Counted from the stretch's first letter, positions 7,483 to 54,479 are shown. The stretch: 64,000 bases of DNA from an uncultured Candidatus Saccharibacteria bacterium (GCA_964624165.1 CAZUWG010000002.1:10410-74409); one strand, 5' to 3'. Notes: a model not told the origin generated them from the letters alone. Numbers and translations: made by a program.

Positions 7483-9369
7483 TTAATTTGTATGTCGAAT
7501 ATTTTCTTTAAGGTTAAAGCGGGGGCGCACTTTTTTGCCTGGGTTAAAGATATCATCTGGGTCAAAAAGATGTTCAAGATTTTCAAAAACTTCAATCATT
7601 TTTTTGCTAAACACTTTATCAAGATGTGGTGTTCTGATGATGCCGTCATTGTGCTCGCCACAAATATTACCGCCATGCTCTACCGCCAGAGTGAAAAACT
7701 CTTCAGACATTTTTTCGATCAAAGTAGCGACTCCTTGTTTCGTAAAATCAATAAGCGGATAAAAGTGAAAATGTCCATTTCCTCCATGTCCGTGTATCGC
7801 GGCGGTCACATGATACGTACGTAGAAGCTTTTGGATACCTGACAAAAATGACGAGAGTGCTGCTGGTGGCACCGTCATATCTTCAAGAAAAGCCGCGGGT
7901 CGTTTACTCTCATCTTGAAACTTTGAAAGGGTATAACTAGCACGACGCACTTGCCACAACATCTCGACTTCGTAAGGATTGATAACAGATCTAGCCATCG
8001 TCCCTCCGGCTTGGCGAATTGCCCCAAGTACATTACTTGTGTTGGCAGCAGAATCCTCATCCAAAGTAATAAGAAAGGTAAATGCCGGAATCTTGCGTTT
8101 GTAGCGTACATGGTACGTAGTGTACATAGAAAACATAACGCGATAATACTCGAGCTTGCCGAGCCGGTCTTTAAAGAAAGCAGGGTTTTGTAAAGCAAGA
8201 TCAAAGCTGAGTGCGTCAAAGACTTCGATATTAATCGGATTGTATTTAAGTGCTTCAGAGATCACTCTACTCGCAGTCGATAAGTCAAAAACCGGCACGA
8301 CGATAAGAGATTGATGTTTTTCTATTGGCGTTGTCTTGAGAGAAATTTTTGTGATGATACCGATTGTGCCCTGACTTCCCGAAAATAGACGAGTCATATC
8401 GAGCTTGGCTTTTCCTTTCTTGAAGTCGGTGATACTTCCGTCAATCACATCCCAAAGCGCATAGCCGGCAGAGTTCTTTTTTGTTTTGGGCGTATTGGCA
8501 CTGATTGTACGGCCGTGCGCACTAAGGAGTGATACGACCTCCTTTAGAATGTGAGCGTAAGCATTATCTTTTTTAATCAGGCGTTTGTATTCACTGTAGC
8601 TTAAGGGAGCGATATGGTAAGTGTTGCCATCGCTGAGTACTACTTCGAGTGATTCAACCCAGCTTGCCATATGTCCGTAGCGTAGAGAGTTTGGACCGGC
8701 GGCATTGTTGGCAATAGATCCTCCGACAGTACAGATATCTTTTGACGCAGGCAAAGAAGGTATGTAGACGTCATAACGCTTAAGGGCTTTTTCTACCGTT
8801 TGCCAGTATGTGCCTGGTAAGACTGTAATGGACACACCATGGCGGGAGGTCTCGATGGCTTCAATGCCATGAAGGTGTCTGGCAGTATCAATGACCACAG
8901 AGTCTGTCAGCGAACCTCCTGATAGACCTGTACCAGCTGAGCGTGGTGTGAGCGAGATGTGAGAAAAAAACTTGGTGTGCTCTTTAAATACCTGCACAGC
9001 AGTGGCGACATCTTTTTGTCGTTTGGGCGAAATAATAATTTGCGGAGTGATAGAAAAAATACTTTCATCAGTGCTGTATGAGGCGAGGGTTGAGGGATCA
9101 TTTTCAATTTCACCAACAAAACCTGCTTCCCTGAGCTTTTGTTCAAGGAGAAGATGACCGAGGGGTTGTCTTATGGCTTGGCGACTAATTTCTTTGTGTG
9201 TCAGAACACGACTGGTTTTTTTTGCAGTGTGCTTATTTTTCGCTTGAGAAGCGTTCTTTTTAGCAGGAGTAACTTTACGAGCCGGAGCTTTTTTTGATGT
9301 TACTTTTTTTGATCGTGCGATCGGTTTTTTTTGCGCCGCACGTTTTTTTGGTGCTGTGGTGGTTGCCAT
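7483..9369 (-). CDS. FAD-linked oxidase (GlcD / D-lactate dehydrogenase family) with lysine-rich N-terminal extension
   Basis: FAD_binding_4-type motifs (PRSAGTGLSGGS...; GGSIANNAAGPNSLRYGHM) and a C-terminal oxidase domain. The N-terminal 55 aa are ATTTAPKKRAAQKKPIARSKKVTSKKAPARKVTPAKKNASQAKNKHTAKK. Start taken as ATG 9369 (MATTT); the track's 9486 start would overlap the divergent helicase gene. Confidence 0.75.
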   Translation of the reverse strand: MATTTAPKKRAAQKKPIARSKKVTSKKAPARKVTPAKKNASQAKNKHTAKKTSRVLTHKEISRQAIRQPLGHLLLEQKLREAGFVGEIENDPSTLASYSTDESIFSITPQIIISPKRQKDVATAVQVFKEHTKFFSHISLTPRSAGTGLSGGSLTDSVVIDTARHLHGIEAIETSRHGVSITVLPGTYWQTVEKALKRYDVYIPSLPASKDICTVGGSIANNAAGPNSLRYGHMASWVESLEVVLSDGNTYHIAPLSYSEYKRLIKKDNAYAHILKEVVSLLSAHGRTISANTPKTKKNSAGYALWDVIDGSITDFKKGKAKLDMTRLFSGSQGTIGIITKISLKTTPIEKHQSLIVVPVFDLSTASRVISEALKYNPINIEVFDALSFDLALQNPAFFKDRLGKLEYYRVMFSMYTTYHVRYKRKIPAFTFLITLDEDSAANTSNVLGAIRQAGGTMARSVINPYEVEMLWQVRRASYTLSKFQDESKRPAAFLEDMTVPPAALSSFLSGIQKLLRTYHVTAAIHGHGGNGHFHFYPLIDFTKQGVATLIEKMSEEFFTLAVEHGGNICGEHNDGIIRTPHLDKVFSKKMIEVFENLEHLFDPDDIFNPGKKVRPRFNLKENIRHTN

Positions 9370-9477
9370 AAAAGATCGTTTAATAATTACATTGTAACGT
9401 GTAAAGAAAGGTAGAGCTTGCTTTGTCCACACTAAAGCAAAAATTTTGAGGCGTCTTACTTGTGGTAGAATGCCCGT

Positions 9478-11175
9478 ATGACTCAACCCGAAGCACTCTC
9501 TATTTTACAAACGGGCGGCAATGCTTTCCTCACTGGTGAACCTGGCGCCGGCAAAACATATGTCATCAACCAATACATTTCTTGGCTTGAGGCAGCCGGA
9601 CTTAAAGTAGCTGTTACCGCCTCAACCGGGATCGCTGCGACGCATATAGGTGGTATGACTATTCACTCATGGAGCCGATTAGGACCTAGAGACTCACTCT
9701 CACCACAAGATCTGGATTACATTTTGCAACATGAAAAAACCGTTAAACGTATTCAAAATACGCACGTACTTATTATTGATGAAATTTCAATGCTGTCCGC
9801 TGAGTTACTAAATATGGTAGATCGCGTCTGCCGAGGAGCGCGCCATTCAACGGAATCATTTGGTGGTTTGCAGGTAGTGTTTGTCGGGGATTTTTTTCAA
9901 TTACCACCCATTGTACCGCGCGGTGAGGAGCTTCATTACGCTTTTCAATCTCAGTCTTGGCGTGAAGCCGCGCCGCTGATTTGTTATCTTACCGATCAAT
10001 ACCGCCAAGAAGACGAACAGCTTCTTTCGCTTCTCCAGTCAATCAGAAAGAACGATGTTGATGATGATGCTTTTACATTACTGAGCGAACAAACTGATAT
10101 CTCATATGTAGACATTGAGCCGACCAGACTCTACACACACAACCTTGATGTAGATAGTGTGAATGGAGCTGAGCTAGAAAAACTCTCAGGCACTTCGCGT
10201 ACGTTCAAAATGGCCGGTAGTGGAAATAAAACTATGCAGCAGTCTTTGGTAAAAAATTGCCTCTCACCTGAGATACTTTACTTAAAGGAAGATGCTATGG
10301 TGATGTGTACTAAAAATAATTTTGAGGCGGGGTACGTCAATGGTACGCTCGGACGGGTGGTTGGTTTTTCTGGTATTGGTTGGCCTGAGATCGAGACGGC
10401 TGAAGGCAAACGCATTACTATTGAGCCGGCCACATGGGAGGTCATCGAAGACAAAAAGTCTCTCGCGGCGGTGGAGCAGGTTCCGCTTCGTCTGGCGTGG
10501 GCGATCACGATTCATAAGAGTCAGGGGATGTCGCTTGATGCAGCAGAGATAGATCTCTCAAAGGCGTTTGTGTTTGGGCAGGGGTATGTGGCGCTCTCAA
10601 GGGTGCGTTCTCTCGCTGGTCTTAAGATGATCGGAATGAGCCCAACTGCGCTTAGAGTAGATCCGAAAGTAGTGCAACGCGACGAAGAGTTTAGAATAAA
10701 AAGTGAAGAAGCCATAAGTACGTTCAGAGAACTTTCAGATGAAGAATTGGAAAAAATGCATAGATCCTTCATTCTTACTTGCGGCGGAACTTTTCCGACT
10801 GAGATACCAAAAGGTAGAGCCACCAGTTATGAAAGAATTAAAAAAGAGAGCACTTACGCGCAGACCAAATCTCTCCTTGCTGAAAAACATACCATCTCTG
10901 AGATTGCTAAGTTGCGCGGTATGAACACCACCACGATCTGGGCACATCTTGAAAAGCTTGCAAGCGACGGCGAGCTTAGTGTATCAATGCTGACACACTT
11001 AACTTCAGCGGTGTCGGATAATTACAAAGAGCAAGAAGAGCGCGTTTTTAAGGCGATTGAGGCATGTGGCGAGGAAAAACTAAAACCACTTTTTGAATAT
11101 TGTAATGAAGAAATTGATTACGAGGTGATCCGTTTGGTGAGACTTCTGCACACACTTGAGTCTGGGGATAAGTAG
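9478..11175 (+). CDS. Pif1/RecD-family ATP-dependent DNA helicase with C-terminal HTH extension
   Basis: Walker A GEPGAGKTYV, Walker B LIIDEISML, and the Pif1-family motif GYVALSRVRSLAGLKM. An extra ~150-aa C-terminal region contains a helix-turn-helix-like segment (HTISEIAKLRGMNTTTIWAHLEKL). Confidence 0.75.
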   Translation: MTQPEALSILQTGGNAFLTGEPGAGKTYVINQYISWLEAAGLKVAVTASTGIAATHIGGMTIHSWSRLGPRDSLSPQDLDYILQHEKTVKRIQNTHVLIIDEISMLSAELLNMVDRVCRGARHSTESFGGLQVVFVGDFFQLPPIVPRGEELHYAFQSQSWREAAPLICYLTDQYRQEDEQLLSLLQSIRKNDVDDDAFTLLSEQTDISYVDIEPTRLYTHNLDVDSVNGAELEKLSGTSRTFKMAGSGNKTMQQSLVKNCLSPEILYLKEDAMVMCTKNNFEAGYVNGTLGRVVGFSGIGWPEIETAEGKRITIEPATWEVIEDKKSLAAVEQVPLRLAWAITIHKSQGMSLDAAEIDLSKAFVFGQGYVALSRVRSLAGLKMIGMSPTALRVDPKVVQRDEEFRIKSEEAISTFRELSDEELEKMHRSFILTCGGTFPTEIPKGRATSYERIKKESTYAQTKSLLAEKHTISEIAKLRGMNTTTIWAHLEKLASDGELSVSMLTHLTSAVSDNYKEQEERVFKAIEACGEEKLKPLFEYCNEEIDYEVIRLVRLLHTLESGDK

Positions 11176-16211: not shown

Positions 16212-17771
16212 TTAGTTGGTGATAGTTACCTCCTGTCCTTCATATAATCCTCGTGCGTCAAAAATAAAACGAGTCGATACATCGATACCACTTTCAATTT
16301 CTACTTGAGTGCCTTGGATAGTTTTGTAGGTGATAGGGAGTGCGCGGACACGATTGTCTTCTACAGTAAAGATAAAGCTATCGTTACCCACAAACTTGAT
16401 AGCATTAATAGGTACTAAGAGTCGAGCCACTTGTTCTTTAACGATGGTATCGTCAGTAAGACTGATGGCGACACTGCTGCCGTTGGTGAGGGTGGTATCG
16501 TCAGTAGCGATTTTTATTTCTGTCTTTAAAGTATTTGGGTCAATCGCGGGAGAGATGTTGACTACAGTGCCGTCGATACGGCCTTCAATTTTTACTGTTT
16601 GGCCAATCTCAAATGAAGCGAGGTCATTCTCACCAGCAAAAATTGATACTTCTAAAGAACCATTATTTGCAATTTCTGCGATTGGAGCAAAGGCGCTCAC
16701 AAAATCACCAGTGTTTACATGAAGAATGTTGACTGTACCGCTGATGGGGGTACGCATAATGGTTTTAAACAGACGTGATTGTGCGGCGCGTAAACTGCCG
16801 AGAGCTTGTTTTACTTGTGCGTCAGCGGCATTAAGGTCTGGATTGGTGGCGCCGATTTGTGCTTTGCGCAACACATCTTCAGCAGTCGTGATAGATCTGC
16901 CGGTTGCTTCGAGTGATTGGACGGTGTTTTGTAGAGAAGCTCTTGTGGCAATCAGGCCAGGAGCAAAACTGCTTACTGCGACTCCATCAAGGGTTTCGTT
17001 TTTCACGGCACTGCTGGTGTTGGAGATAAAGATATCCAGGAGCTCAATCACTGCTCGGGTATGAGTAATTGCGCGCGAAAGTTCTGTTTCGACAGACTCA
17101 GAGCTAACAGTTTCTATGCTGTTTTCCCAACTCGTAAGATTCGCTTCAAGGGCGATTCGTTTGTCGTTGATACGTGGGGCATTGCCAACGTCAATACGCA
17201 CACCTGGAATCTGTGATCTTGGATTACTAAAAAACCTATCAATATCAAAAATGACGGCAGTGTAGGCAGTGTTATATGCTTGCTTATATACAGTAACCGC
17301 GTTTTGCTTGGCGGCCATGAGGTCGTTTTGTGCGTCTTCAACACTTACGCGACTAGATGCTTGAGCAGCTAAAGCGGCTTCATATGCACCTTGCGCCTGA
17401 AGGACAGCGGCTCTTTCCGCAGAATTTTCAATGCTAGCAATAAGACTGCCAGCTGCAACGGTGTCGCCAGCTTTAACACTCACGCTAGTGATACGGCCAG
17501 CTCCTTCAGACTTGATCGCTGCTTCGCTAACCGCGCGTACTGTGCCTACAAACTCACGACTATCTGTAGCACTTAAATCAGACACCGTACCAACCCTGAC
17601 CACAGGGACAGGAGTGGTAAGAGGCTCCTTTGAGGTGTCGGGGGAAAGAAACTGAGTACCTACAAAAAGAGCCGCGAGTATAAGTAATACTCGGATCGCG
17701 TTGTTGCGCTTTGTGAGGGGCCAGACGTAAAAAGAGAGGTCTTCCCCAACAGCTTTTATAATATTCAGCAT
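16212..17771 (-). CDS. RND efflux periplasmic adaptor (membrane-fusion protein, HlyD family)
   Basis: N-terminal anchor, a long alpha-helical hairpin region and beta-barrel/lipoyl-like segments (ISGTVNILHVNTGDFV...). Directly upstream of and co-oriented with the RND permease, 3-nt gap. Confidence 0.8.
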   Translation of the reverse strand: MLNIIKAVGEDLSFYVWPLTKRNNAIRVLLILAALFVGTQFLSPDTSKEPLTTPVPVVRVGTVSDLSATDSREFVGTVRAVSEAAIKSEGAGRITSVSVKAGDTVAAGSLIASIENSAERAAVLQAQGAYEAALAAQASSRVSVEDAQNDLMAAKQNAVTVYKQAYNTAYTAVIFDIDRFFSNPRSQIPGVRIDVGNAPRINDKRIALEANLTSWENSIETVSSESVETELSRAITHTRAVIELLDIFISNTSSAVKNETLDGVAVSSFAPGLIATRASLQNTVQSLEATGRSITTAEDVLRKAQIGATNPDLNAADAQVKQALGSLRAAQSRLFKTIMRTPISGTVNILHVNTGDFVSAFAPIAEIANNGSLEVSIFAGENDLASFEIGQTVKIEGRIDGTVVNISPAIDPNTLKTEIKIATDDTTLTNGSSVAISLTDDTIVKEQVARLLVPINAIKFVGNDSFIFTVEDNRVRALPITYKTIQGTQVEIESGIDVSTRFIFDARGLYEGQEVTITN

Positions 17772-44085: not shown

Positions 44086-44640
44086 ATGGCAACACACCAA
44101 CCTGACGAACATATCGAAGAGGACGAAGTAACCATTGAAGACACTGAGCAGATAGAGACAGAAGAGCGGCTTGAGAGCAAGCTAAAGACACTCAGAGAAA
44201 AACTAAAGGTGTGCGAGGCAGAGAAGATGACTGCCCTTGAGGACTTACAGCGAGCACGCGCAGACTTCCTTAATACTAAAAGAAGACTCGAGGAGCAAAA
44301 GCAAGCAGACATCACACGGGTCGCCGATAAATTTGTCGCGTCTCTTTTACCACTGACCGATAGTTTTTCTATGGCCATGGCTGACAAAGCCGCCTGGGAA
44401 GAGATAGATGCGTCGTGGCGCACGGGAGTAGAAGGCATTAAAAGCCAACTCGATCGTATCCTAGCAACGCACAATGTCACTAAAATTGAGGCCCTTGGTA
44501 CACATTTTAATCACGACGAACATGAAGCAGTCGGTACTAAGGAAGGGGAGGAGGCTGACATTGTATTAGAAGTTGTACAAGAAGGATATAAAAAAGACGG
44601 AGCGGTACTTCGTCCAGCAAAAGTAATTATCAGTGCATAA
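44086..44640 (+). CDS. grpE: nucleotide exchange factor GrpE
   Basis: Coiled-coil N-terminus and GrpE C-terminal beta domain; located immediately upstream of dnaK. Confidence 0.85.
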
Positions 44641-46624: not shown

Positions 46625-47695
46625 ATGGCAAAAGACTATTACAACATTCTCGGAGTTGAAAAAAACGCGTCAAAAGACGAAATCAAAAAGGCTTTTCGAA
46701 AACTCGCCGGCAAATACCATCCAGACAAAAAAACGGGTGACGAGTCGAAGTTTAAAGAGGTAAGTGAGGCTTATTCGATCCTTAGTAATGAAAAGAAGCG
46801 CGCTGAGTACGATACGTACGGCCAATCATTTGCTGGCGCAAGCGGCGGACAAGGCGGTTTTGGCGGGTTTGATTTTTCTCAATTTCAGCAAGGAGGCGGG
46901 TTTTCATTTGATATTAATGACATTTTTGAAAACTTTGGTGATATGTTTGGAGGAGGGAATGGCAGATCTCGACGCGGACGTGATATTTCAATTGACATCA
47001 ACCTCACCTTCAAAGAAGCCATCTTTGGCGTGAAGCGTAGCGTCCTTTTGACCAAGACCAGCACGTGCGAACACTGCGAAGGTACTGGAGCTAAAGATAA
47101 AAGTAAACTCAAAACCTGTGCCACTTGTAATGGACAGGGCAAGGTTCGTGAAGTGCGCCAAAGCATCATGGGTCAGTTTCAAACGGCTCGTATTTGTGAT
47201 ACCTGCCACGGGAGTGGTAAAGTGCCTGAAGAAAAGTGTACGCACTGCAATGGCGCAGGCGTACGAAAAAGAGAAGAAGAGATTGCCATCGCTATTCCTG
47301 CGGGGGTGCAAGACGGGGAAGTAGTGCGCATGACCGGACGTGGCGAAGCAATTCCCCACGGGCAATCCGGCGATCTCTACATAAAACTCCATGTTGAAAC
47401 CAACAAAAATATAGTTCGTGAAGGATGGAACCTAACATCCACTCTCGAAGTGAAGCTCACCGATGCGCTACTTGGCGGCGAGTATGTTGTACATACACTT
47501 GACGGAGAAACTAAAGTGAAGATACCAGCAGGTGTTAGCCATGGCGAAAAGTTGCGCCTTAAAGGCAAGGGTGTGCCAACTGGACGCGGCACGGAGCGGG
47601 GTGACTTCTTGGTACGTATTTCCATTAAAAATCCCACTAAACTTTCTAAAACCGCCAAAGCCCTCATTGAACAACTTCGAGAAGAAGGTGTGTAG
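46625..47695 (+). CDS. dnaJ: co-chaperone DnaJ
   Basis: J-domain with HPD (KYHPDK), a G/F region and four CxxCxGxG zinc-finger repeats. Confidence 0.9.
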
Positions 47696-47716
47696 CAGCA
47701 TGTTACACATAAAGGA

Positions 47717-47744
47717 AAAGGGCGAGTCTTGCTCGCCCTTTCTC
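47717..47744. terminator. intrinsic terminator after dnaJ
   Basis: AAAAGGGCGAG-TCTTG-CTCGCCCTTTCT. Confidence 0.6.
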
Positions 47745-47847
47745 GCTGCAAAGCTGCTATCGCGCAAGTCTTTGTGCCGCTATCTCTAGAAGATATAGCC
47801 CATGGAGACTAAAAGCCAGAGCCACCAGCGACAGAAGTCCTGCTACG

Positions 47848-48450
47848 ATGCAGCAGTTCACAACTAAATCCGCAACTTTATCCGCCCGCCGCTTCCTCAT
47901 AAAATACCTCCCTAATTACACCTTTCTCTATCATGGCATGGAATTGGCTTTTAGCAAGCTGGGGGAGGGCAGCAAAACTTCTCTCAACCCTGACGTGTGC
48001 TACCATTACTTTATGTCGCTCCACCCGCTAAGTTTCGATTTTGGTGATAACGATGAACCGAGCGAACCATTTACTTTATTTGAATCAATCATTGAAGATC
48101 GCGGCAGTAGATATACTGTCAGCATTGGGTGTGTGAAAAATCGCGAGGAAATTGCGCACTTTCTTTCTACACTAAAACAAAAGAAAAAATACCAAAAAGC
48201 TACCCATCACTCTTATGCAGCTATCATAGAAAGAGACGGCGTCAGCTATGAAACAAAAAATGACGACGGTGAGACCGGTGCCGGCATGGTAATTCTTCGT
48301 ATGATTAAAAAACATAAAATGCATAACACTATCGTGTGCGTCACTAGATGGTTTGGCGGTGTAAAGCTCATGGGTGATCGTTTCCGCCATATACAAAACG
48401 CGGCAGAGTACGCTTTAACGCACATAAAGAGACACCCGCCAACGTCATAG
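47848..48450 (+). CDS. IMPACT/YigZ-family protein (UPF0029)
   Basis: NDDGETGAGMVILRMI...NTIVCVTRWFGGVKLMGDRFRHIQNAAEYAL matches the conserved DDGE…VVVTRYFGGxKLG core. The N-terminal boundary is uncertain; the true start may be an internal Met. Confidence 0.6.
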   Translation: MQQFTTKSATLSARRFLIKYLPNYTFLYHGMELAFSKLGEGSKTSLNPDVCYHYFMSLHPLSFDFGDNDEPSEPFTLFESIIEDRGSRYTVSIGCVKNREEIAHFLSTLKQKKKYQKATHHSYAAIIERDGVSYETKNDDGETGAGMVILRMIKKHKMHNTIVCVTRWFGGVKLMGDRFRHIQNAAEYALTHIKRHPPTS

Positions 48451-48742
48451 GCGGGTGCTAGTCCTTCATCATATGGAGCCAGGACAACGCTAAGCCCGGC
48501 AACGCTTCGATGGGCACTTCGGTAGGAAGCGTCTTGAAAAGGAGCGTTTTCTTTGGCGCTCTGTTATTCAGAGCGAAGTAAAAATGCAACGCTAAAATAA
48601 AAATACAGAGCATGCCTGCCACCATTCCTAACTTACGCATACTGTCCTCCCCTTATTCTCAAACTATTATACGCCATAAGATAGAAAAGCAAACTGTCTA
48701 CAACTTCGCTTTTCTTATGTCATCTTTTGTTATACTGAAGCT

Positions 48743-49213
48743 ATGGATATTTTGGCGTTAGTGAGCGAGTTTGCGTTTGTGCTTGTCGTTTTTTTCAGCT
48801 TCCTTTTCTACACTATGTGGCGGGGGAGGCAAGCCACGATAAATCTCATACTTGGTCTTTACTTCGCACTTCTAATCTCGTACACCTTTCCTTACTATGA
48901 AGTGTTGCTGGGCGACGCTTCTGCAGAAGCGCGCTCGGTCGTACGTCTACTACTCTTTGTTTTATTTACTATAGGATCTACGCTACTCTTTCGCAGACTT
49001 TCATACGAAGGAAGCCGGGAAGGATTTTTTGCTGGATTTCCACGTAAGCTGGCGTATGCCCTGGCTGCCACTGTGCTTGTTTTAAATTTTAGCTTTAACA
49101 CGCTACCTATTACAGAGTTTATAGACCCGGGTCCTATCCAAGGTATATTCAACTCAGCTCAAGCCTTCTTCTGGTGGCTCTTTATCCCAGTTATAGTGTT
49201 ATTCTTGTTATAG
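48743..49213 (+). CDS. hypothetical polytopic membrane protein (first gene of membrane-SET-kinase operon)
   Basis: 156 aa with 4 hydrophobic helices; 6-nt gap to the next gene. Confidence 0.5.
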   Translation: MDILALVSEFAFVLVVFFSFLFYTMWRGRQATINLILGLYFALLISYTFPYYEVLLGDASAEARSVVRLLLFVLFTIGSTLLFRRLSYEGSREGFFAGFPRKLAYALAATVLVLNFSFNTLPITEFIDPGPIQGIFNSAQAFFWWLFIPVIVLFLL

Positions 49214-49219
49214 GTTTTT

Positions 49220-50347
49220 ATGTCAGGCTTACTCATACTCGGACTCTTGGCGGGAATAGTACAAGTCTTCGGGTATGTGCTCTACATAAAAAAAGCCCAA
49301 AAGCATGATATTGATCCGCACCCAATCACATGGCTCATTTTTGCTTTTGATACTGCACTGCTTACTTTTCTAGAGTTTGCGGCGGGAGCCTCACTGGCAC
49401 TACTTTTTTTGCCAGTTCTATGTTCGATAGGTGCCTGCTATGTTGCTCTACTTATTTATAAAGACGGAAAAATTTCTTGGCCAAGCGATCGACTTGATAA
49501 GTATATTCTTAGTGTTGGTATTTTTATTGCCGTAAGCTACTGTTCACTTTTTGTGCTTGAACAAGCTGGTTTTATACCCGCTTCATACACACTTTTCGCG
49601 GCGTATCTTTTCCTTATTCTTTCAAATCTCAATACGTTCGTGGCGTTTGTACCTATCCTTAAAGAAGTACGAGCTTTCCCAGAGACCGAGCACGCCGGTC
49701 CATGGATGGTGTGGGCGGGTGCATATTTTCTTTTGCTGCTCGCTACATTTATTGAGGTGGGTGTTCGTGTCGAAGGATTTTTGCTTTACCTCTACCCAGT
49801 TAGCTCAATGTTTCTCCATGGGGCAGTGGGGGTATTAGCACTTGATCGAAAGTCATATTTAGAATTCCTTTACCCTAAAAATAGCGCAATTAGCGGTACT
49901 GGTGTTTACACTAGGGTACCTTTTGTAAAAGGGCAGGTCATTAGCAAAATTATAGGTACGGAAAAATATTTTCGTGCCACTAATCAGACTGAGGCCCTCT
50001 CCATCGAAACATGGTATGGCATCGGAGAAGATTTGTGGATAGACCCAGGAGACTCAATCTTTCGTTATCTCAATCACTCATGCGATCCAAATTGTGCAGT
50101 AGTAGGCACCAAAACACTCGTGGCTCGGCGACCAATTTTGCAAGATGAAGAACTTACTATTGATTACAGCATGACTGACGCCGACCCACATTGGCAGCTC
50201 ACCTGCTTATGTAAATCCACACAATGCCGGAAAACAATCTCCGCCATCCAAACCCTGCCTCCGAAAGTAGTAGAAGAACATTTGCCGTATGTTCCAGACT
50301 ATTTCTTATCAATTTACCAGACAAAATACCCCCAGCTTAAAAATTAA
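49220..50347 (+). CDS. 6-TM membrane domain fused to C-terminal SET-domain protein-lysine methyltransferase
   Basis: Residues 1-215 form six hydrophobic helices. Residues ~222-340 carry a GxG SAM motif (ISGTGVYT), the canonical NHSCDPN and EELTIDY SET motifs, and a post-SET Cys cluster (CLCKSTQC). Confidence 0.8.
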   Translation: MSGLLILGLLAGIVQVFGYVLYIKKAQKHDIDPHPITWLIFAFDTALLTFLEFAAGASLALLFLPVLCSIGACYVALLIYKDGKISWPSDRLDKYILSVGIFIAVSYCSLFVLEQAGFIPASYTLFAAYLFLILSNLNTFVAFVPILKEVRAFPETEHAGPWMVWAGAYFLLLLATFIEVGVRVEGFLLYLYPVSSMFLHGAVGVLALDRKSYLEFLYPKNSAISGTGVYTRVPFVKGQVISKIIGTEKYFRATNQTEALSIETWYGIGEDLWIDPGDSIFRYLNHSCDPNCAVVGTKTLVARRPILQDEELTIDYSMTDADPHWQLTCLCKSTQCRKTISAIQTLPPKVVEEHLPYVPDYFLSIYQTKYPQLKN

Positions 50348-50349
50348 TT

Positions 50350-52140
50350 ATGAGATATCGAGAAAAATTCTTACTTGTTGTTACAGTCGCAATAACTTTT
50401 GCAGCCACCCTATCTGCTGCTCATACGTTTTATAATCTCAAAAACTATACACAGTTTACGGCTGCAGAGCTTGGTTATCAGACTGACAGCTACGAGGCAT
50501 GTGAGTGGGGTGAATCAAGTTTTTTAATTTTCTCCAACAACGTCGGCAACCTGATCTACTACACACACGTTTTTCCACTTGTCATCTCTTTATTTATTGG
50601 TATTTTTGTCCTTGCCAATAATTATCGCGACCGTAGAAATGTCGTCTTTTCTGTGTTGACAGTGCTTTTTGCACTATGGGCATACTTTGATCTTGTGCTC
50701 TGGGCTTCGCCAAGCCAAGCAGACGTGATGTTTTTCTGGTCGGCTATAGTACCCGTCGAGATGTTTTTATATCTCCTTTCTGCTTATTTAATATATCTTT
50801 TCACTCGTGGCAAAGACGCCCCTTTCTACGGCAAAGTTGTAGGGCTTATTCTTGCCCTCCCGACTATCGTACTCATGCCCACCGCGCTCAATGTGATAGG
50901 ACTTTCGCCTGATTGCGACGAAGGTGCGTTTGAAGGGCCTTTGATTCACTACATGTATATTTTGGAGATTTTTATCATTATCTTTATTTGCTATCTCACA
51001 CTTACTACAAAAAAGTTTTTCAACAATGTAATTGAGCGCAAAAAAGCTTACACCATTGGCATTGCGACAATTATCTTCTTGACCTTTTTCACTATGGGCA
51101 ATCTCACACTGATGTTTGAGCTTGGTCCAAATTATGAACAATACAAACTCTTTGGGATGCCGATCTTTGCGGCCCTCGTCACATATGCCCTGGTGAAATT
51201 TCGTGCATTTGGCGTAAAAGTACTTTTGACACAAGTACTGGTAGCGGTCATTTGGGTATTATTGTTTTCAGTCACTCTGCTGGAATCTATGGAGCGAGCC
51301 AGAGCAATTATCATCCTCACTCTAGTAGTTTTCTCCGTTATTGCTCTCCAGCTTGTACGTTCAGTCAAAAAAGAAGTCGAACAGCGAGAAGAGCTAGAAA
51401 AACTAGCCTATACACTTGAGCATGCCAACGAGCGATTGAAAGAGCTCGATAAGCTGAAGTCTGAGTTTGTTTCTATAGCCTCCCACCAGCTACGCAGCCC
51501 GCTTACCGCTATTCGTGGTTATGCCTCAATGCTCGAAGAAGGGAGCTTTGGTTCACTAAGCGAAAAAGCTCGTACGGCAGTGCATAAGATCAATGAATCC
51601 AGCCGGCTTATGGCGCTTTCGGTCGAAGATTACCTTAATGTCTCACGCATCCAAGCCGGGCGAATGCGCTACGAGCTAAGCGATAGCAATATCTGTGATT
51701 TGGTTGAAAGCGCGGTAGATGGTCTTCGAGGCCAAGCGCAGCGCAAAGGAATTCTTCTTACCCTGAAAAAACAAGCCGGCCGCACTTGCCTTGTGCGAGC
51801 TGATGTAGGGAAAGGGAATCAGATCATTCACAACCTCATCGACAATGCTCTCAAGTACACCGACGAAGGCTTTGTGGACGTCTCCATAAAAAACGTTGGC
51901 GATACAGTGGAAATAGCAGTCAGCGATACCGGCACCGGCCTCGGCAAGGATGAGCTGGCAAGCATTTTTGAAAAGTTTGAGCGCACCAAAGACGCTAACA
52001 CTATCAATCCCAACGGCACTGGTCTTGGTCTCTACCTGGCCCAAAAGATGGCTCGCGACATGGGCGGCGATGTGACGGCAAGCTCACCAGGGAAAAATCT
52101 TGGCTCTACCTTTACCCTTATTCTGCCGTTGGCAAAATAG
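50350..52140 (+). CDS. multi-TM sensor histidine kinase (no cognate response regulator in window)
   Basis: A ~340-aa N-terminal domain with 7-8 TM helices. Then HisKA (LDKLKSEFVSIASHQLRSPLTAIRGYASML) and HATPase_c (HNLIDNALKYT...DTGTGLGKDE...GTGLGLYLAQKMARDMGG). 2-nt gap to the SET gene. Confidence 0.85.
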   Translation: MRYREKFLLVVTVAITFAATLSAAHTFYNLKNYTQFTAAELGYQTDSYEACEWGESSFLIFSNNVGNLIYYTHVFPLVISLFIGIFVLANNYRDRRNVVFSVLTVLFALWAYFDLVLWASPSQADVMFFWSAIVPVEMFLYLLSAYLIYLFTRGKDAPFYGKVVGLILALPTIVLMPTALNVIGLSPDCDEGAFEGPLIHYMYILEIFIIIFICYLTLTTKKFFNNVIERKKAYTIGIATIIFLTFFTMGNLTLMFELGPNYEQYKLFGMPIFAALVTYALVKFRAFGVKVLLTQVLVAVIWVLLFSVTLLESMERARAIIILTLVVFSVIALQLVRSVKKEVEQREELEKLAYTLEHANERLKELDKLKSEFVSIASHQLRSPLTAIRGYASMLEEGSFGSLSEKARTAVHKINESSRLMALSVEDYLNVSRIQAGRMRYELSDSNICDLVESAVDGLRGQAQRKGILLTLKKQAGRTCLVRADVGKGNQIIHNLIDNALKYTDEGFVDVSIKNVGDTVEIAVSDTGTGLGKDELASIFEKFERTKDANTINPNGTGLGLYLAQKMARDMGGDVTASSPGKNLGSTFTLILPLAK

Positions 52141-52176
52141 TTTGGCAAATAGCCGTAATTTGCTACTATACGTGAT

Positions 52177-53115
52177 ATGAAACCACGACTCTTAACCGGA
52201 CTCCAGTCTTCTGGCACACTTCATATCGGCAATTACTTTGGGGCACTTAAGCCATTTGTTGATATGTACGAGGAATATGACAGCTATCTTATGGTGGCAG
52301 ACTATCATGCCCTCACCAGCCTTCGAAGCCCCGAGGAAATGCACGACAACATCATCAACGTCGTAAAGGATTATCTTGCCGTAGGCGTGGATCCAAAAAA
52401 ATGCGTAATCTTTCGTCAATCAGACAACCAGGACCATATGGAGCTGGCGTGGATCTTCAACTGCATGGTGAATGTCTCATTTCTTGAACTCGCCCACGCG
52501 TATAAAGATAAGGTCGCCAAAGGCATGGACGCCAACGCCGGACTCTTTACCTACCCAATGTTGCAGGCAGCTGATATCACCCTCTACGACATAGACGTCG
52601 TGCCAGTCGGGGAGGATCAGCGCCAACATCTCGAGTACACACGCGAGGCGGTCGGCAAACTCAATCGCGCCTATGGAGAACTCCTAAAACCCCCTAAAGA
52701 GCTTATTTTAGATCAGGTCGGCGTTGTGCCTGGTACCGACGGAGAAAAAATGAGCAAAAGCAAGGGCAACATCATTCCACTATTTGGCAGCGCAAAAGAG
52801 ATTGAAAAAGCTGTCATGAGCATCAAGACCGACAGTCAGGGCGACCGCCCAGAGCACGTGTACGGCATACACCGCCTTATCAAAAGCGAGGAAGCCTTAC
52901 TACCTGTCTATGAAGCACATAAAGGTCGTTATGGAGACCTTAAAAAGATTCTTGTTCATGACCTCACCACACACCTGAAACCACTTCGTGAAGCGAGAGC
53001 AAAGATCAGTGACGAAGACGTAAAGCAAGTACTGGCAAAGGGAAGTGCCAAAGCAAAGACCGTCTCTAATGAGACACTAAAGAGAGTCCGCGACGCAATC
53101 GGAATTACAATTTAA
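52177..53115 (+). CDS. trpS: tryptophanyl-tRNA synthetase
   Basis: HIGH (TLHIGNY), KMSKS (KMSKSKGN) and a class I Trp/Tyr-type fold in a ~312-aa protein. Confidence 0.85.
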   Translation: MKPRLLTGLQSSGTLHIGNYFGALKPFVDMYEEYDSYLMVADYHALTSLRSPEEMHDNIINVVKDYLAVGVDPKKCVIFRQSDNQDHMELAWIFNCMVNVSFLELAHAYKDKVAKGMDANAGLFTYPMLQAADITLYDIDVVPVGEDQRQHLEYTREAVGKLNRAYGELLKPPKELILDQVGVVPGTDGEKMSKSKGNIIPLFGSAKEIEKAVMSIKTDSQGDRPEHVYGIHRLIKSEEALLPVYEAHKGRYGDLKKILVHDLTTHLKPLREARAKISDEDVKQVLAKGSAKAKTVSNETLKRVRDAIGITI

Positions 53116-53126
53116 ATCAAAACTTT

Positions 53127-54479
53127 ATGGAACGAACACTCATTTCAGCACTGCAATCACATATCGGTAGCACAGTTACAATTGCCGGCGTTGCCTCGGT
53201 GGTGCGCCAGCAAGGCAAGATGGTTTTTTTTGATTTTCGTGATCGCAGCGGTATCGTGCAAGGAGTGGTTTTTGGAAAGCCAGACGTCCTAGCAATTGCC
53301 AGCGACGTTTCTCCGGAGAGCTCACTTTATGTGACCGGCATTGTTAATAAACGCCCCGACAAAATGGTCAATGACAAAGTCGACAATGGTGACATTGAAC
53401 TTGAAATTACCGAGATTCAGATCTTGAACAAAGCTGACTCATTACCTTTTGCGCTTGATGGAGAGTTTACACTCGAGACCTTGCTTGATAATCGACCTCT
53501 TACCTTAAGACGCAAAGAAGACCGAGCGTTATTTTCTATTCAAGCTGCTATTACTGAAGCCTACGGTACGTTTTTGCGCCAAGAAGGATTCACTGAGTTT
53601 CAAGCACCGAAGCTAGTCGGTGGAGACGCTGAAGGCGGCGCGGAAGTATTTAAGGTTGATTATTTTAATGACAAAACAGCCTATCTCGCTACGAGCCCAC
53701 AACTCTATAAGCAAATGATGGTGGGGGTATTTGAGCGCGTCTTTTCATTTGCTACTGCTTTTCGAGCGGAAAAAAGCGCCACCACACGTCACTTAAGTGA
53801 ATACACCTCTCTTGATATGGAGATGGGGTTTATTGAGAGCCATCTTGACGTAATGAAGGTAGAGACCGCACTTATGAGCCATATCACTGAGTATTTGAAA
53901 ACACACAATCAAGCCGAACTTGATACTCTCAAAGTCTCGCCACCACTCATTCCTGAAGGAGAAGTATTTCCTTATATGAAACTTAGAGAAGCGCAAGCAC
54001 TCATTAAAGAGCGTACCGGGCAAGACAAAACTTCAGAGCCAGACCTAGAGCCAGAAGATGAACGGTGGCTTTGCGAGTATGCGCGTGAAGAGCTGGGGAG
54101 CGATTTTATTTTTATTACGCATTACCCTGTCTCAAAGCGACCGTTTTATACTATGGAAGATTCAGAAGATCCTGGTTTTACAAAGAGCTTCGACTTACTT
54201 TTCCGCGGAGTTGAAATCACCACCGGCGGCCAACGTGTGCATGATTTAGAAGTACTCAAAGAAAAGGCGAAATCAAAAGGACTCGACCCCGATAAGTTTT
54301 TATTTTATTTGCAAGCATTCCAGTATGGTATTCCGCCGCATGGCGGTTGGGGGATGGGTCTCGAGCGTCTCACGGCAAAATTCTGCGGCGTTAAAAACGT
54401 GAAAGAAGCAACACTGTTCCCGCGAGACATCAACCGTATTGATACCTTGCTTTCAAAACCCAATCCGGGCGACGAATAG
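53127..54479 (+). CDS. aspS: aspartyl-tRNA synthetase, archaeal/eukaryotic-type short form (possibly non-discriminating; AsnRS not excluded)
   Basis: Class IIb: N-terminal OB anticodon-binding domain, YLATSPQLYKQ, motif 2 FRAEKSATTRHLSEYTSLDMEM and motif 3 GGWGMGLERL in a 450-aa protein. Confidence 0.65.
   Translation: MERTLISALQSHIGSTVTIAGVASVVRQQGKMVFFDFRDRSGIVQGVVFGKPDVLAIASDVSPESSLYVTGIVNKRPDKMVNDKVDNGDIELEITEIQILNKADSLPFALDGEFTLETLLDNRPLTLRRKEDRALFSIQAAITEAYGTFLRQEGFTEFQAPKLVGGDAEGGAEVFKVDYFNDKTAYLATSPQLYKQMMVGVFERVFSFATAFRAEKSATTRHLSEYTSLDMEMGFIESHLDVMKVETALMSHITEYLKTHNQAELDTLKVSPPLIPEGEVFPYMKLREAQALIKERTGQDKTSEPDLEPEDERWLCEYAREELGSDFIFITHYPVSKRPFYTMEDSEDPGFTKSFDLLFRGVEITTGGQRVHDLEVLKEKAKSKGLDPDKFLFYLQAFQYGIPPHGGWGMGLERLTAKFCGVKNVKEATLFPRDINRIDTLLSKPNPGDE

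What the first reader, a model, noticed from the sequence alone, without database searches (positions are those of the whole stretch)
48743..52140. Operon of three polytopic membrane proteins: unknown, 6-TM-SET methyltransferase fusion, and orphan 7-8-TM histidine kinase
The gene at 49220-50347 encodes six N-terminal transmembrane helices fused to an unmistakable SET domain: GxG (ISGTGVYT), NHSCDPN, EELTIDY and a post-SET CxCx4C. SET-domain lysine methyltransferases are chiefly eukaryotic; bacterial examples are rare and mostly soluble. A membrane-integral SET is architecturally unusual. It is flanked with 6-nt and 2-nt gaps by another small polytopic protein and by a sensor histidine kinase with a large multi-TM sensor domain, and no response regulator is nearby. 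Inference: a membrane-associated signalling or protein-methylation module. Candidate targets could be lysine-rich basic tails such as the one on the FAD-oxidase at 9190-9369, or partner proteins of an episymbiotic lifestyle.
Basis: partly seen in the sequence, partly recalled or inferred. Interest (0 to 1): 0.8.

Follow-up and report, generated by a model that had tools for sequence, protein, structure and literature searches.

The report
Membrane SWEET-fold–SET methyltransferase with orphan kinase
A candidate-phyla-radiation bacterium fuses a seven-helix, transporter-like membrane protein to a SET methyltransferase beside a many-helix histidine kinase, and this undescribed gene module recurs in related uncultured bacteria, suggesting methylation at the membrane is tied to signal sensing.

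Summary

In relatives the 7TM protein and SET are separate adjacent genes. The window gene is a Rosetta-stone fusion of a kind that arose or broke at least 9 times; 12 of 150 family representatives are fused. The kinase (50350-52140) has 10 TM helices. Its first helix matches a separate 50-60-aa peptide gene in relatives, so this is a second fusion.

The order 7TM, SET, 1-TM peptide, 9-TM kinase holds in about 12 distinct loci, down to about 31% identity. No response regulator was found in any locus. The upstream small polytopic gene is not module-specific: it persists after dnaJ in a genome that lacks the module. The host is a Paceibacteria-type CPR bacterium.

Best reading: a membrane signalling module in which a transporter-like receptor holds a lysine or amine methyltransferase next to an orphan kinase. 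The substrate is unknown. A small-amine methylation route is a serious rival, because polyamine genes are embedded in the module in two loci. No published description was found. Interest is moderate to high.

The parts
49220..49849 (+). N-terminal 7-TM domain (aa 1-210) of the fusion protein, with the SWEET/PQ-loop (3+1+3) fold. Conserved cytoplasmic-face motifs are DIDPHPITW (49307-49333) and VPILKEV...EHAGPW (49649-49705). The repeat motifs are LFLPVLC (TM3) and LYPVSS (TM7).
49844..49867 (+). Very short linker (aa 209-216, DRKSYLEF) at the fusion junction. It replaces the stop codon, the intergenic bases and the start codon seen in relatives.
   Evidence: Alignment A1. In relatives the two genes are 12 nt apart (L001) or overlap by 23 nt (L003).
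49868..50242 (+). SET plus post-SET methyltransferase domain (aa 217-341). Motifs: GxG at 49892-49912, NHSCDPN at 50072-50092, EELTIDY at 50147-50167 and C-x-C-x4-C at 50204-50227. Predicted to be cytoplasmic.
   Evidence: Pfam SET at 43 bits. A family profile against the PDB gives KMT2A E=1e-20 over the whole domain. Foldseek gives MLL1/3/4 E about 4e-7, TM about 0.65. Invariant N71, H72, C74, Y102, C115, C117 and C122 in 18 orthologues. Positive-inside count is 11 K/R inside against 1 outside.
50243..50344 (+). Conserved C-terminal extension of this prokaryotic SET subfamily (I-x-x-I-Q-x-L-P...L-P-x-(I/V)-P-x-(Y/F)-F).
   Evidence: Alignments A1 and A7. Helices 348-352 and 360-369 in the model.
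50350..50499 (+). First about 50 aa of the kinase: a short basic N-terminus, one TM helix and an outside segment. It is homologous to a separate 50-63-aa (112 aa in L007) 1-TM peptide gene in relatives, so this is a second gene fusion in this genome.
   Evidence: Alignment A3 and ORF comparison. The motif [KQH][DN][FY]xx[LF][TS] after the helix is shared by the window, L002, L003, L005, L006, L007, L008, L010 and L021.
50500..51369 (+). Nine-TM sensor domain of the histidine kinase. It has an invariant outside Cys pair (C51, C189) and invariant polar residues within the membrane (H73, D114, E195, E206, N251, Q264).
   Evidence: Hydropathy. Alignment of 10 orthologues. A sensor HMM recovers the same domain next to SET in L001-L008, L010-L014, L017 and L021. 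No Pfam family.
51457..52134 (+). Kinase core: HisKA (aa 370-437, phospho-acceptor His379 at 51484-51486) and HATPase_c (aa 491-595) with N, G1 and G2 boxes.
   Evidence: Pfam HisKA E=2.6e-16 and HATPase_c E=7.3e-24. H379, N499, D526, G528, G530, G558 and G560 are invariant in 10 orthologues.
48743..49213 (+). Small polytopic protein (156 aa, about 5 hydrophobic helices). It is probably co-transcribed (6-nt gap), but it is a dnaKJ-associated backbone gene and not a specific module component.
   Evidence: No Pfam hit. Orthologues are 47-50% identical. It is present after dnaJ in L022, which lacks 7TM, SET and kinase (E=3.7e-36). It is absent next to the module in L008 and L012.

Best explanation
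This is a membrane signalling module of Paceibacteria-type CPR bacteria. It has four conserved parts:
- a 7-TM protein with the SWEET/PQ-loop transporter or receptor fold;
- a small cytoplasmic SET methyltransferase that binds this 7-TM protein (here covalently fused to its cytoplasmic C-terminus through an 8-residue linker);
- a 1-TM peptide (here fused to the kinase);
- a 9-TM HisKA-type histidine kinase with no adjacent response regulator.

Proposed mechanism: the 7-TM protein binds or conducts a ligand. In doing so it positions or gates the SET active site at the inner face of the membrane, next to the kinase. SET uses S-adenosyl-methionine to methylate a lysine on a component of the pathway. 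Candidates are the cytoplasmic part of the kinase, the basic N-terminus of the 1-TM peptide, or the unknown downstream partner. Methylation tunes the kinase's output, much as CheR methylation tunes chemoreceptors or PhoP.

Shown here: the domain identities, the folds, the topology, intact catalytic motifs in both enzymes, the gene order, and the recurrent fusions. Inferred: physical complex formation (from the fusions), the protein-lysine substrate (from homology to KMT2-type SETs), and the regulatory logic.
For: SET identity and intact catalytic, SAM-binding and Zn motifs. SWEET/PQ-loop fold and internal duplication of the membrane half. Cytoplasmic placement of SET by the positive-inside rule, 11 against 1 K/R.

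The gene order 7TM, SET, (1-TM peptide), kinase with the same 9-TM sensor is seen in about 12 distinct loci, with 7TM identity down to 31-37%. This includes a different neighbourhood (L008: PheRS and EPSP synthase). SET followed by the same-sensor kinase also occurs where the 7TM is missing or replaced (L010, L021); in L009 a SET sits before a kinase with a different sensor.

The 7TM-SET fusion is present in 12 of the top 150 family representatives. These are scattered on the 7TM tree: at least 9 fusion or fission events, and 8 of 11 fused members have an unfused nearest neighbour. pTM of 0.81 for the two-domain model suggests a defined docking of SET on the 7TM. A second fusion (1-TM peptide plus kinase) occurs in the window. 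The kinase's catalytic residues are invariant.

Other members of the 7TM family are fused to a CHASE4 sensory domain, which fits a sensory role. The module SET profile is much closer to KMT2 protein-lysine methyltransferases (E=1e-20, full domain) than to the small-molecule SET BurB (3e-12, half domain). Methylation control of a two-component protein has a precedent (PMC8546571).
Against: No substrate was identified. The only invariant lysine in the kinase's cytoplasmic part is the generic N-box K502, so no distinctive lysine target stands out. No SET-kinase fusion was seen among the SET hits. No demethylase or reader gene appears in the loci. No response regulator was found within 5-10 kb in any locus, so the output is unknown.

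Most loci come from one lineage in which the wider neighbourhood (dnaKJ ... trpS) is also syntenic. Gene order alone is therefore weaker evidence than it looks.

The SWEET/PQ-loop fold is overwhelmingly a transporter fold. Polyamine and arginine genes lie inside or beside the module in three loci, which points toward a small-molecule role. In fold terms BurB matches as well as MLL.
Confidence: 0.4

Rival explanations
1. Transport-coupled methylation of a small amine. The 7-TM protein is a SWEET/PQ-loop-type uniporter for a cationic amine such as lysine, arginine, ornithine, agmatine or a polyamine. SET, sitting at its cytoplasmic exit, N-methylates the substrate. This would either trap it in the cell, as NadR or ThiN-type kinases do for the SWEET-like Pnu transporters, or make a methylated product for export. 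The kinase senses the same compound or the membrane state.
For: The fold is that of cystinosin and SWEET transporters, and PQ-loop proteins carry cystine, lysine and arginine (PMC5972207). An 8-residue linker puts SET directly under the transporter's cytoplasmic face. BurB proves that a small bacterial SET can methylate a free amino acid (PMC12542666), and it matches the model as well as MLL does in fold (E=1.9e-6, TM 0.65).

Polyamine or arginine genes are embedded in or abut the module: spermidine synthase in L017, pyruvoyl arginine decarboxylase plus a deoxyhypusine-synthase-like gene in L021, and an AstE/AspA deacylase in L007. In L021 another polytopic, transporter-like protein replaces the 7TM. 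Distant members of the same SET subfamily sit in metabolic contexts, namely a sarcosine oxidase cluster in L019 and amino-acid or peptide enzymes in L020. Metabolic trapping by Pnu transporters is established (PMC5749112).
Against: By sequence the module SETs, the L021 SET and P0051 all score better against KMT2 lysine methyltransferases than against BurB. This reading does not explain why SET is always followed by the same kinase, even where no 7TM is present (L010). The polyamine genes occur in only 3 of about 20 loci. The most conserved 7TM residues lie on the cytoplasmic loops rather than in an obvious central binding site. No Pfam PQ-loop or MtN3 profile hit and no canonical PQ motif.
Confidence: 0.3
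2. SET is a general protein-lysine methyltransferase for abundant basic proteins, such as nucleoid-associated or K-rich-tailed proteins like the one at 9369-9190, or ribosomal proteins. The 7-TM domain is only a membrane anchor or regulator. The kinase is a neighbour with a separate job.
For: The archaeal and bacterial standalone SETs characterised so far methylate chromatin-like or host histone proteins (PMC3980110). The window does encode a protein with an H1-like K/A/P-rich tail. The SET is closest to histone KMT2 enzymes.
Against: Tethering the enzyme to the membrane through an 8-residue linker would restrict its access to nucleoid or ribosomal targets. The highly specific, recurrent partnership with one 7-TM family and the constant adjacency to one kinase family are not expected for a general methyltransferase. 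No test linked K-rich proteins to the module.
Confidence: 0.12
3. Aminolipid head-group methylation. The 7-TM protein presents the amine of a membrane lipid (phosphatidylethanolamine, lysyl-phosphatidylglycerol or an ornithine lipid) to SET, which methylates it. This would remodel lipids that CPR cells scavenge. The kinase monitors the state of the membrane.
For: SET is held at the membrane surface. From established knowledge, some PQ-loop-clan proteins such as MPDU1 handle lipid-linked substrates. The kinase has nine TM helices and only short outside loops, so it is a plausible intramembrane sensor. CPR bacteria generally lack de novo lipid synthesis (established knowledge).
Against: No lipid-metabolism gene appears in any locus. 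There is no precedent for a SET acting on lipids. The idea is purely inferential.
Confidence: 0.08

Closest known systems
KMT2/SET1 (MLL)-type SET plus post-SET protein-lysine methyltransferases
   Same: Best sequence and fold match over the whole catalytic domain (profile E=1e-20; Foldseek E about 4e-7). It shares the GxG, NHSCxPN and ELTxDY motifs and the post-SET C-x-C-x4-C (CRK) Zn motif.
   Different: The domain is a minimal SET of about 160 aa with no WRAD-type partner proteins. It has Ile where MLL1 has its Phe/Tyr-switch Tyr (TIDY against TYDY; the switch assignment is from memory). It has its own conserved C-terminal extension. It is membrane-tethered and prokaryotic, and no histone substrate is known in this organism.
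Small standalone prokaryotic SET proteins (for example Methanosarcina Go1-SET, Chlamydia/Legionella/Bacillus SET effectors; review PMC3980110)
   Same: Same size class (160-190 aa) and the same family by sequence: 82 hits, including MAGs of Rhizomicrobium, Dehalococcoidia and Promethearchaeota. In most relatives the module SET is also a standalone gene.
   Different: Those proteins are soluble, and no 7-TM or histidine-kinase partner is described in the review read here. Here SET is always next to, or fused with, a specific 7-TM protein and a specific kinase. Distant family members are not kinase-linked.
BurB, a SET-domain methionine S-methyltransferase (PDB 9l4t/9l4v; PMC12542666)
   Same: A small bacterial SET with a comparable fold match (E=1.9e-6, TM 0.65) and a sequence match over the C-terminal half (E=3e-12). 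It shows that SET enzymes can act on free amino acids.
   Different: The sequence match is weaker and partial compared with KMT2. BurB is soluble and tetrameric, and it belongs to a DMSP or malleicyprol-type pathway rather than a kinase module.
SWEET / PQ-loop / KDEL-receptor (MtN3-like clan, 3+1+3 seven-TM fold): cystinosin, PQLC2, SWEETs, SemiSWEET dimers
   Different: No Pfam MtN3_slv or PQ-loop profile hit and no canonical PQ dipeptide. Seven-TM members are documented as rare in prokaryotes (20 in UniProt in 2018, PMC5972207). None is known to be fused to an enzyme. The substrate or ligand is unknown.
Transporter or accessory-protein co-sensing with histidine kinases, and methylation-based tuning of signalling (CheR with chemoreceptors; CheR with PhoP, PMC8546571)
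   Same: A polytopic kinase accompanied by accessory membrane proteins and a SAM-dependent methyltransferase. This suggests tuning of a two-component sensor by methylation.
   Different: The methyltransferase is a SET (beta-clip fold, amine N-methylation) and not a CheR class I enzyme (glutamate O-methylation). No CheB-like demethylating enzyme, MCP domain or response regulator is present in the loci.
Pnu transporters with cytoplasmic trapping kinases (PnuC-NadR, PnuT; PMC5749112)
   Same: A SWEET-related 7-TM facilitator works together with a cytoplasmic enzyme that modifies the substrate.

Membership tests
SET-domain methyltransferase (Pfam PF00856) | Significant match to the SET profile above the curated threshold | tested here: met
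   E=6.8e-11, 43 bits against a 22.4-bit cut-off, aa 226-316 covering profile positions 1-104 of 105.
SET-domain methyltransferase (Pfam PF00856) | SAM-binding and catalytic motifs: GxG, NHSCxPN, and ELxxDY with the catalytic Tyr | tested here: met
   SGTGVYT, NHSCDPN and EELTIDY are present. N71, H72, C74, E97, D101 and Y102 are invariant in 18 orthologues.
SET-domain methyltransferase (Pfam PF00856) | Post-SET Zn cluster (Cys of NHSC plus C-x-C-x4-C) | tested here: met
   CLCKSTQC at aa 329-336. C74, C115, C117 and C122 are invariant. It aligns to CNCGAKKCRK of KMT2.
SET-domain methyltransferase (Pfam PF00856) | SET beta-fold | tested here: met
   The model is confident over the SET half (10-residue block means 83-98, dropping to 75 only in the last five residues). 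Foldseek top hits are MLL1/3/4 SET domains, probability 1.00, TM about 0.65.
SET-domain methyltransferase (Pfam PF00856) | SAM-dependent methyl transfer to a protein lysine | not testable with these tools
   Needs an enzyme assay. A small-molecule substrate, as for BurB, cannot be excluded (PMC12542666).
SWEET / PQ-loop (MtN3-like clan) 7-TM proteins | Seven TM helices in a 3+1+3 arrangement with two homologous triple-helix bundles | tested here: met
   Seven helices in two independent models. hhalign of TM1-3 against TM5-7 gives 93.8% probability, E=1.7e-7.
SWEET / PQ-loop (MtN3-like clan) 7-TM proteins | Structural similarity to solved family members | tested here: met
SWEET / PQ-loop (MtN3-like clan) 7-TM proteins | Match to the Pfam MtN3_slv or PQ-loop sequence profiles, and the PQ dipeptide motif | tested here: not met
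   No such Pfam hit even at E<=1. TM5 carries V-P-I instead of P-Q, and TM1 has no P-Q. The claim is therefore membership of the fold or superfamily, not of the named Pfam families.
SWEET / PQ-loop (MtN3-like clan) 7-TM proteins | Solute transport or ligand binding | not testable with these tools
   Needs transport or binding assays.
HisKA-type sensor histidine kinase (two-component system) | HisKA dimerisation domain with phospho-acceptor His, and HATPase_c with N, G1 and G2 boxes | tested here: met
   HisKA E=2.6e-16 and HATPase_c E=7.3e-24. H379, N499, D526/G528/G530 and G558/G560 are invariant in 10 orthologues.
HisKA-type sensor histidine kinase (two-component system) | Cognate response regulator encoded nearby | tested here: not met
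   No receiver-domain hit in the window or in 22 related loci. No Response_reg appears in the precomputed Pfam lists of the loci. The seeds were four single sequences, so a very divergent receiver could have been missed.
Chemotaxis-type methylation adaptation (CheR/CheB with MCP) | CheR class I methyltransferase, CheB or CheD demethylating enzyme, and an MCP signalling domain | tested here: not met
   The methyltransferase is a SET, not a CheR. No CheB, CheD or MCP families appear in the Pfam annotation of any locus. The resemblance is in logic only.
BurB-like small-molecule SET methyltransferases | Closer relationship to BurB than to protein-lysine SETs | tested here: inconclusive
   By sequence, KMT2A (E=1e-20, full domain) is stronger than BurB (3e-12, C-terminal half), and the order is the same for P0051 and the L021 SET. 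By fold they are equal. The BurB substrate contacts are main-chain, so they cannot be read from the sequence (PMC12542666).

The most novel reading that the evidence does not exclude
The module would be a previously unrecognised kind of bacterial signal transducer. A SWEET-fold seven-helix receptor or transporter would couple ligand occupancy directly to SET-catalysed N-methylation of a lysine on an orphan polytopic histidine kinase or its partner, or of the transported amine itself. Methylation, rather than (or in addition to) phosphotransfer to a response regulator, would then carry the signal. It would also be the first membrane-embedded SET enzyme system and the first enzyme-coupled SWEET/PQ-loop protein.
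Probability: 0.25. Interest if true: 0.85.

Novelty: new variant of a known kind. Interest (0 to 1): 0.66.

Why it matters
SET methyltransferases are textbook chromatin enzymes, and their native roles in free-living prokaryotes are largely unknown. SWEET/PQ-loop proteins are known as plain transporters or, in the KDEL receptor, as a trafficking receptor. They are rare as seven-helix forms in bacteria.

Here one specific 7-TM family partners with SET, repeatedly fuses to it, and sits in a fixed module with an orphan polytopic histidine kinase. This gives a concrete, testable system for three questions:
- what bacterial SET enzymes methylate;
- whether a SWEET-fold protein can act as a sensor or feed an enzyme directly;
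- how response-regulator-less kinases of CPR bacteria signal.

The study also defines three unannotated protein families as targets for annotation: the 7-TM family (656 representative clusters), the 9-TM sensor, and the 1-TM peptide.

Tried and rejected
- Exact look-up of the window's own fusion protein in the contig index found nothing on record.
- The cluster look-up returned no names or accessions for any module protein.
- The scan of GTDB species representatives with the 7TM alignment gave only one locus. The pattern-based method is narrow, so this under-reports the family, which has 656 representatives by exhaustive HMM search.
- A 48-sequence 7TM alignment was too diverse for the metagenome pattern scan. 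A 15-sequence one worked.
- Viral contig scans for the 7TM and for the module SET found no relatives, so a viral origin has no support from these scans.
- The afdb50 fold library was unavailable, so the labelling of the family in UniProt/AFDB was not checked.
- I tested whether the N-terminal extension of the 543-aa fusion P0119, or the extensions of other long members, are the small polytopic protein, the kinase sensor or the kinase core. They are not.
- I asked whether this SET clade is specifically BurB-like. It is not by sequence.
- I looked for a distinctive invariant cytoplasmic lysine in the kinase or the 7TM as a candidate target. None was found beyond the generic N-box Lys.
- Promoter and terminator pattern scans of 47600-53300 were at or near shuffle expectation (7 promoter-like sites against 8.3 expected; 8 terminator-like sites against 5.7 expected), so they were uninformative.
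- Literature searches for SET with a histidine kinase, a transmembrane domain or Patescibacteria returned nothing relevant.
- My first crude gene list miscalled an antisense ORF over grpE. The real grpE is at 44086-44640.
- The first attempt at the 7TM tree timed out and was rerun with a faster method.

Full report
**Observation.** They are separated by 6 and 2 nt. The middle protein matches Pfam SET (PF00856) at E=6.8e-11, 43 bits against a curated cut-off of 22.4, over residues 226-316. The quoted motifs are present: SGTGVYT at 225-231, NHSCDPN at 285-291, EELTIDY at 310-316 and C-L-C-K-S-T-Q-C at 329-336. The third protein has HisKA (370-437) and HATPase_c (491-595). phmmer with CheY, PhoB, OmpR and NarL against every six-frame ORF of the window found no receiver domain.

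Profile-profile comparison of TM1-3 against TM5-7 across 48 family members gives 93.8% probability and E=1.7e-7. The internal triple-helix-bundle duplication that defines this fold is therefore present. Pfam's MtN3_slv and PQ-loop profiles do not hit, and there is no canonical PQ dipeptide. I claim the fold and superfamily, not membership of those Pfam families. The predicted cytoplasmic loops and tail carry 11 K/R against 1 on the outside loops. This gives N-out/C-in, the known SWEET topology, and puts SET in the cytoplasm, 8 residues from the end of TM7.

**The gene is a fusion, and the fusion recurs.** A word-indexed search found only one other full-length protein (P0002, 40% identity) and eight proteins of 213-224 aa that cover only the membrane half at 50-59% identity. 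In their contigs a separate 160-aa SET gene follows immediately, 12 nt downstream in L001 and overlapping by 23 nt in L003. An exhaustive HMM search with the 7TM alignment found 656 representative clusters at E<=1e-3 and 85 at E<=1e-30. Among the best 150, twelve carry a C-terminal SET; one has two SETs and one has a long N-terminal extension. On a crude average-linkage tree of 140 7TM domains, the 11 fused members need at least 9 fusion or fission events. Eight of the 11 have an unfused nearest neighbour. Recurrent Rosetta-stone fusion is good evidence that the 7-TM protein and SET work as a physical pair. The tree is crude and the count is approximate.

**A second fusion and the real composition of the module.** Relatives have a kinase of about 560 aa preceded by a 50-63-aa ORF (112 aa in L007). 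That ORF encodes a short basic N-terminus, one TM helix and a motif [KQH][DN][FY]xx[LF][TS]. The window kinase is 36 aa longer, and its first 50 residues or so align to that peptide. The window kinase therefore has about 10 helices, made of the peptide plus a 9-TM sensor. Across ten orthologues the following are invariant:
- the catalytic His379, N499, D526/G528/G530 and G558/G560;
- an outside Cys pair, C51 and C189;
- intramembrane polar residues H73, D114, E195, E206, N251 and Q264.

**Co-conservation.** Home-made HMMs for the 7TM, SET, kinase sensor, kinase core and small polytopic protein were run over 22 fetched loci. The order 7TM (sometimes in tandem duplicate), SET, kinase with the same sensor is found in the window and in L001/2, L003/4, L005-L008, L011-L014 and L017. 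This holds with 7TM identity down to 31-37%. L015 and L018 end right after SET, and L016 is too short to tell. SET followed by the 1-TM peptide and the same-sensor kinase also occurs without the 7TM in L010. In L021 an unrelated protein of about 10 TM helices sits in the 7TM's place. L009 has a SET followed by a kinase of a different type.

Most loci lie between dnaK-dnaJ and a class Ib aminoacyl-tRNA synthetase gene, so general synteny inflates the signal. However, L008 (PheRS ... EPSP synthase) and L010 (peptidase S9 ... YecM) are different neighbourhoods. In the Kaiserbacteria locus L022 the backbone runs dnaJ, small polytopic protein, trpS, with the 7TM, SET and kinase all absent. The module therefore behaves as an accessory unit. 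The 156-aa gene at 48743-49213 belongs to the backbone, not to the module. No receiver domain was found in any locus.

**Lineage.** The window's DnaK is 80-83% identical to proteins labelled Candidatus Paceibacterota, Parcubacteria and Kaiserbacteria. One related contig comes from a sample whose name indicates a 0.1-um fraction, probably Hainich groundwater (inferred from the contig name). Some 7TM family members (P0111, P0119, P0122) have high-GC-style, Arg/Ala-rich sequences, so the family probably extends beyond CPR.

**What the SET is related to.** The SET half retrieves about 17 close standalone SETs and many more distant prokaryotic ones, from Rhizomicrobium, Dehalococcoidia, Corynebacteriales and Promethearchaeota MAGs. 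A profile of 18 module SETs hits KMT2A at E=1e-20 over the full domain and BurB at 3e-12 over the C-terminal half. Foldseek rates MLL1/3/4 (E about 4e-7) and BurB (1.9e-6) about equally. BurB is a bacterial SET that S-methylates free methionine (PMC12542666), so the fold is not restricted to protein lysines. No viral relatives of the 7TM or the module SET were found by pattern scans of the viral contig collection. Bacterial SET genes are now regarded as native to prokaryotes (PMC3980110). That review does not mention membrane or kinase associations, and full-text searches found no description of a 7TM-SET or SET-kinase system.

**Mechanism.** The best-supported reading is a membrane signalling module. 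A transporter-like or receptor-like 7-TM protein holds SET at the inner membrane face beside an orphan polytopic kinase, and SET methylates a lysine of a pathway component. Support comes from several directions:
- the recurrent fusions;
- the constant SET-kinase adjacency, even without the 7TM;
- the second fusion, of the peptide with the kinase;
- CHASE4 fusions of the 7TM family elsewhere;
- the KMT2-like sequence of the SET.

The weaknesses are that there is no identified target lysine, no response regulator and no demethylase.

The main rival is transport-coupled methylation of a small cationic amine. It is supported by these points:
- the transporter fold itself;
- the BurB precedent;
- metabolic trapping by SWEET-like Pnu transporters (PMC5749112);
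- polyamine and arginine genes inside or beside the module in L017, L021 and L007;
- the metabolic contexts of distant SET relatives.

That rival does not explain the kinase linkage. I rate the readings at 0.40, 0.30, 0.12 and 0.08 (aminolipid methylation), with the remainder for something not considered.

**Novelty and verdict.** All three domain types are known. The following appear to be undescribed:
- the specific partnership and repeated fusion of a SWEET-fold 7-TM family with SET;
- its fixed module with a 1-TM peptide and a 9-TM orphan kinase;
- the three unannotated families involved.

I class this as a new variant of known kinds, with a 0.25 chance that it is a truly new type of transducer. 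Interest is 0.66.

Noticed in passing
window 9190-9369 (minus strand), N-terminus of ORF 7483-9486: An H1-like K/A/P-rich basic tail (MATTTAPKKRAAQKKPIARSKKVTSKKAPARKVTPAKKNASQAKNKHTAKK) precedes a 667-aa ORF.
   Followed up: partly
L017 3516-4911; L021 13823-15362; L007 7584-8462: Polyamine or arginine metabolism genes lie inside or against the module. L017 has spermidine synthase plus DUF2617. L021 has pyruvoyl arginine decarboxylase plus a deoxyhypusine-synthase-like gene. L007 has an AstE/AspA-type deacylase right after the kinase.
   Followed up: partly
L022 13636-14106 (Kaiserbacteria, GCA_019634005.1): The orthologue of the window's small polytopic protein (48743-49213) stays directly after dnaJ in a genome region that lacks the 7TM, SET and kinase. 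It is an unannotated, dnaKJ-associated membrane protein family of Paceibacteria in its own right.
   Followed up: partly
L013 1423-2996; L014 4776-6540: Tandem duplicated copies of the 7-TM gene lie upstream of SET in two metagenomic loci.
   Followed up: no
P0122, P0111 (representative proteins): Members of the 7-TM family from high-GC-looking organisms continue into an eighth TM helix and an extracytoplasmic CHASE4 sensory domain. This suggests the 7-TM domain also serves as the N-terminal module of sensor proteins.
   Followed up: partly
P0011 (313 aa); P0243 (530 aa): A protein made of two tandem module-type SET domains, and a 7-TM protein carrying two SET domains.
   Followed up: no
L021 15423-16463: A 346-aa protein with about 10 TM helices and no Pfam hit occupies the position of the 7-TM protein. 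Here the 1-TM peptide (16539-16730) precedes SET instead of following it.
   Followed up: partly
L019 1-4555: A distant standalone SET of the same prokaryotic subfamily (P0051) sits at the end of a sarcosine oxidase (soxA/B/D-like) gene cluster. This hints at a link to small-molecule methylamine metabolism for some prokaryotic SETs.
   Followed up: no
L009 1-4985: Two very large ORFs (more than 781 aa and 1013 aa) without any Pfam family lie immediately upstream of a SET plus kinase pair. The kinase has a different type of sensor.
   Followed up: no
window 1-64000: No tRNA gene (ARAGORN) and no Rfam family at gathering threshold in the entire 64 kb. Nearly all genes are on the + strand. The backbone S13-S11-S4-RpoA-L17-L13-S9-GrpE-DnaK-DnaJ is collinear with other Paceibacteria (L021, L022).
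   Followed up: partly
window 48451-48742: A 292-nt gap lies upstream of the small polytopic gene. It contains only a 60-aa antisense ORF (48458-48640) with no meaningful Pfam hit. In L003 and L004 a 205-aa minus-strand gene occupies the equivalent position.
   Followed up: no
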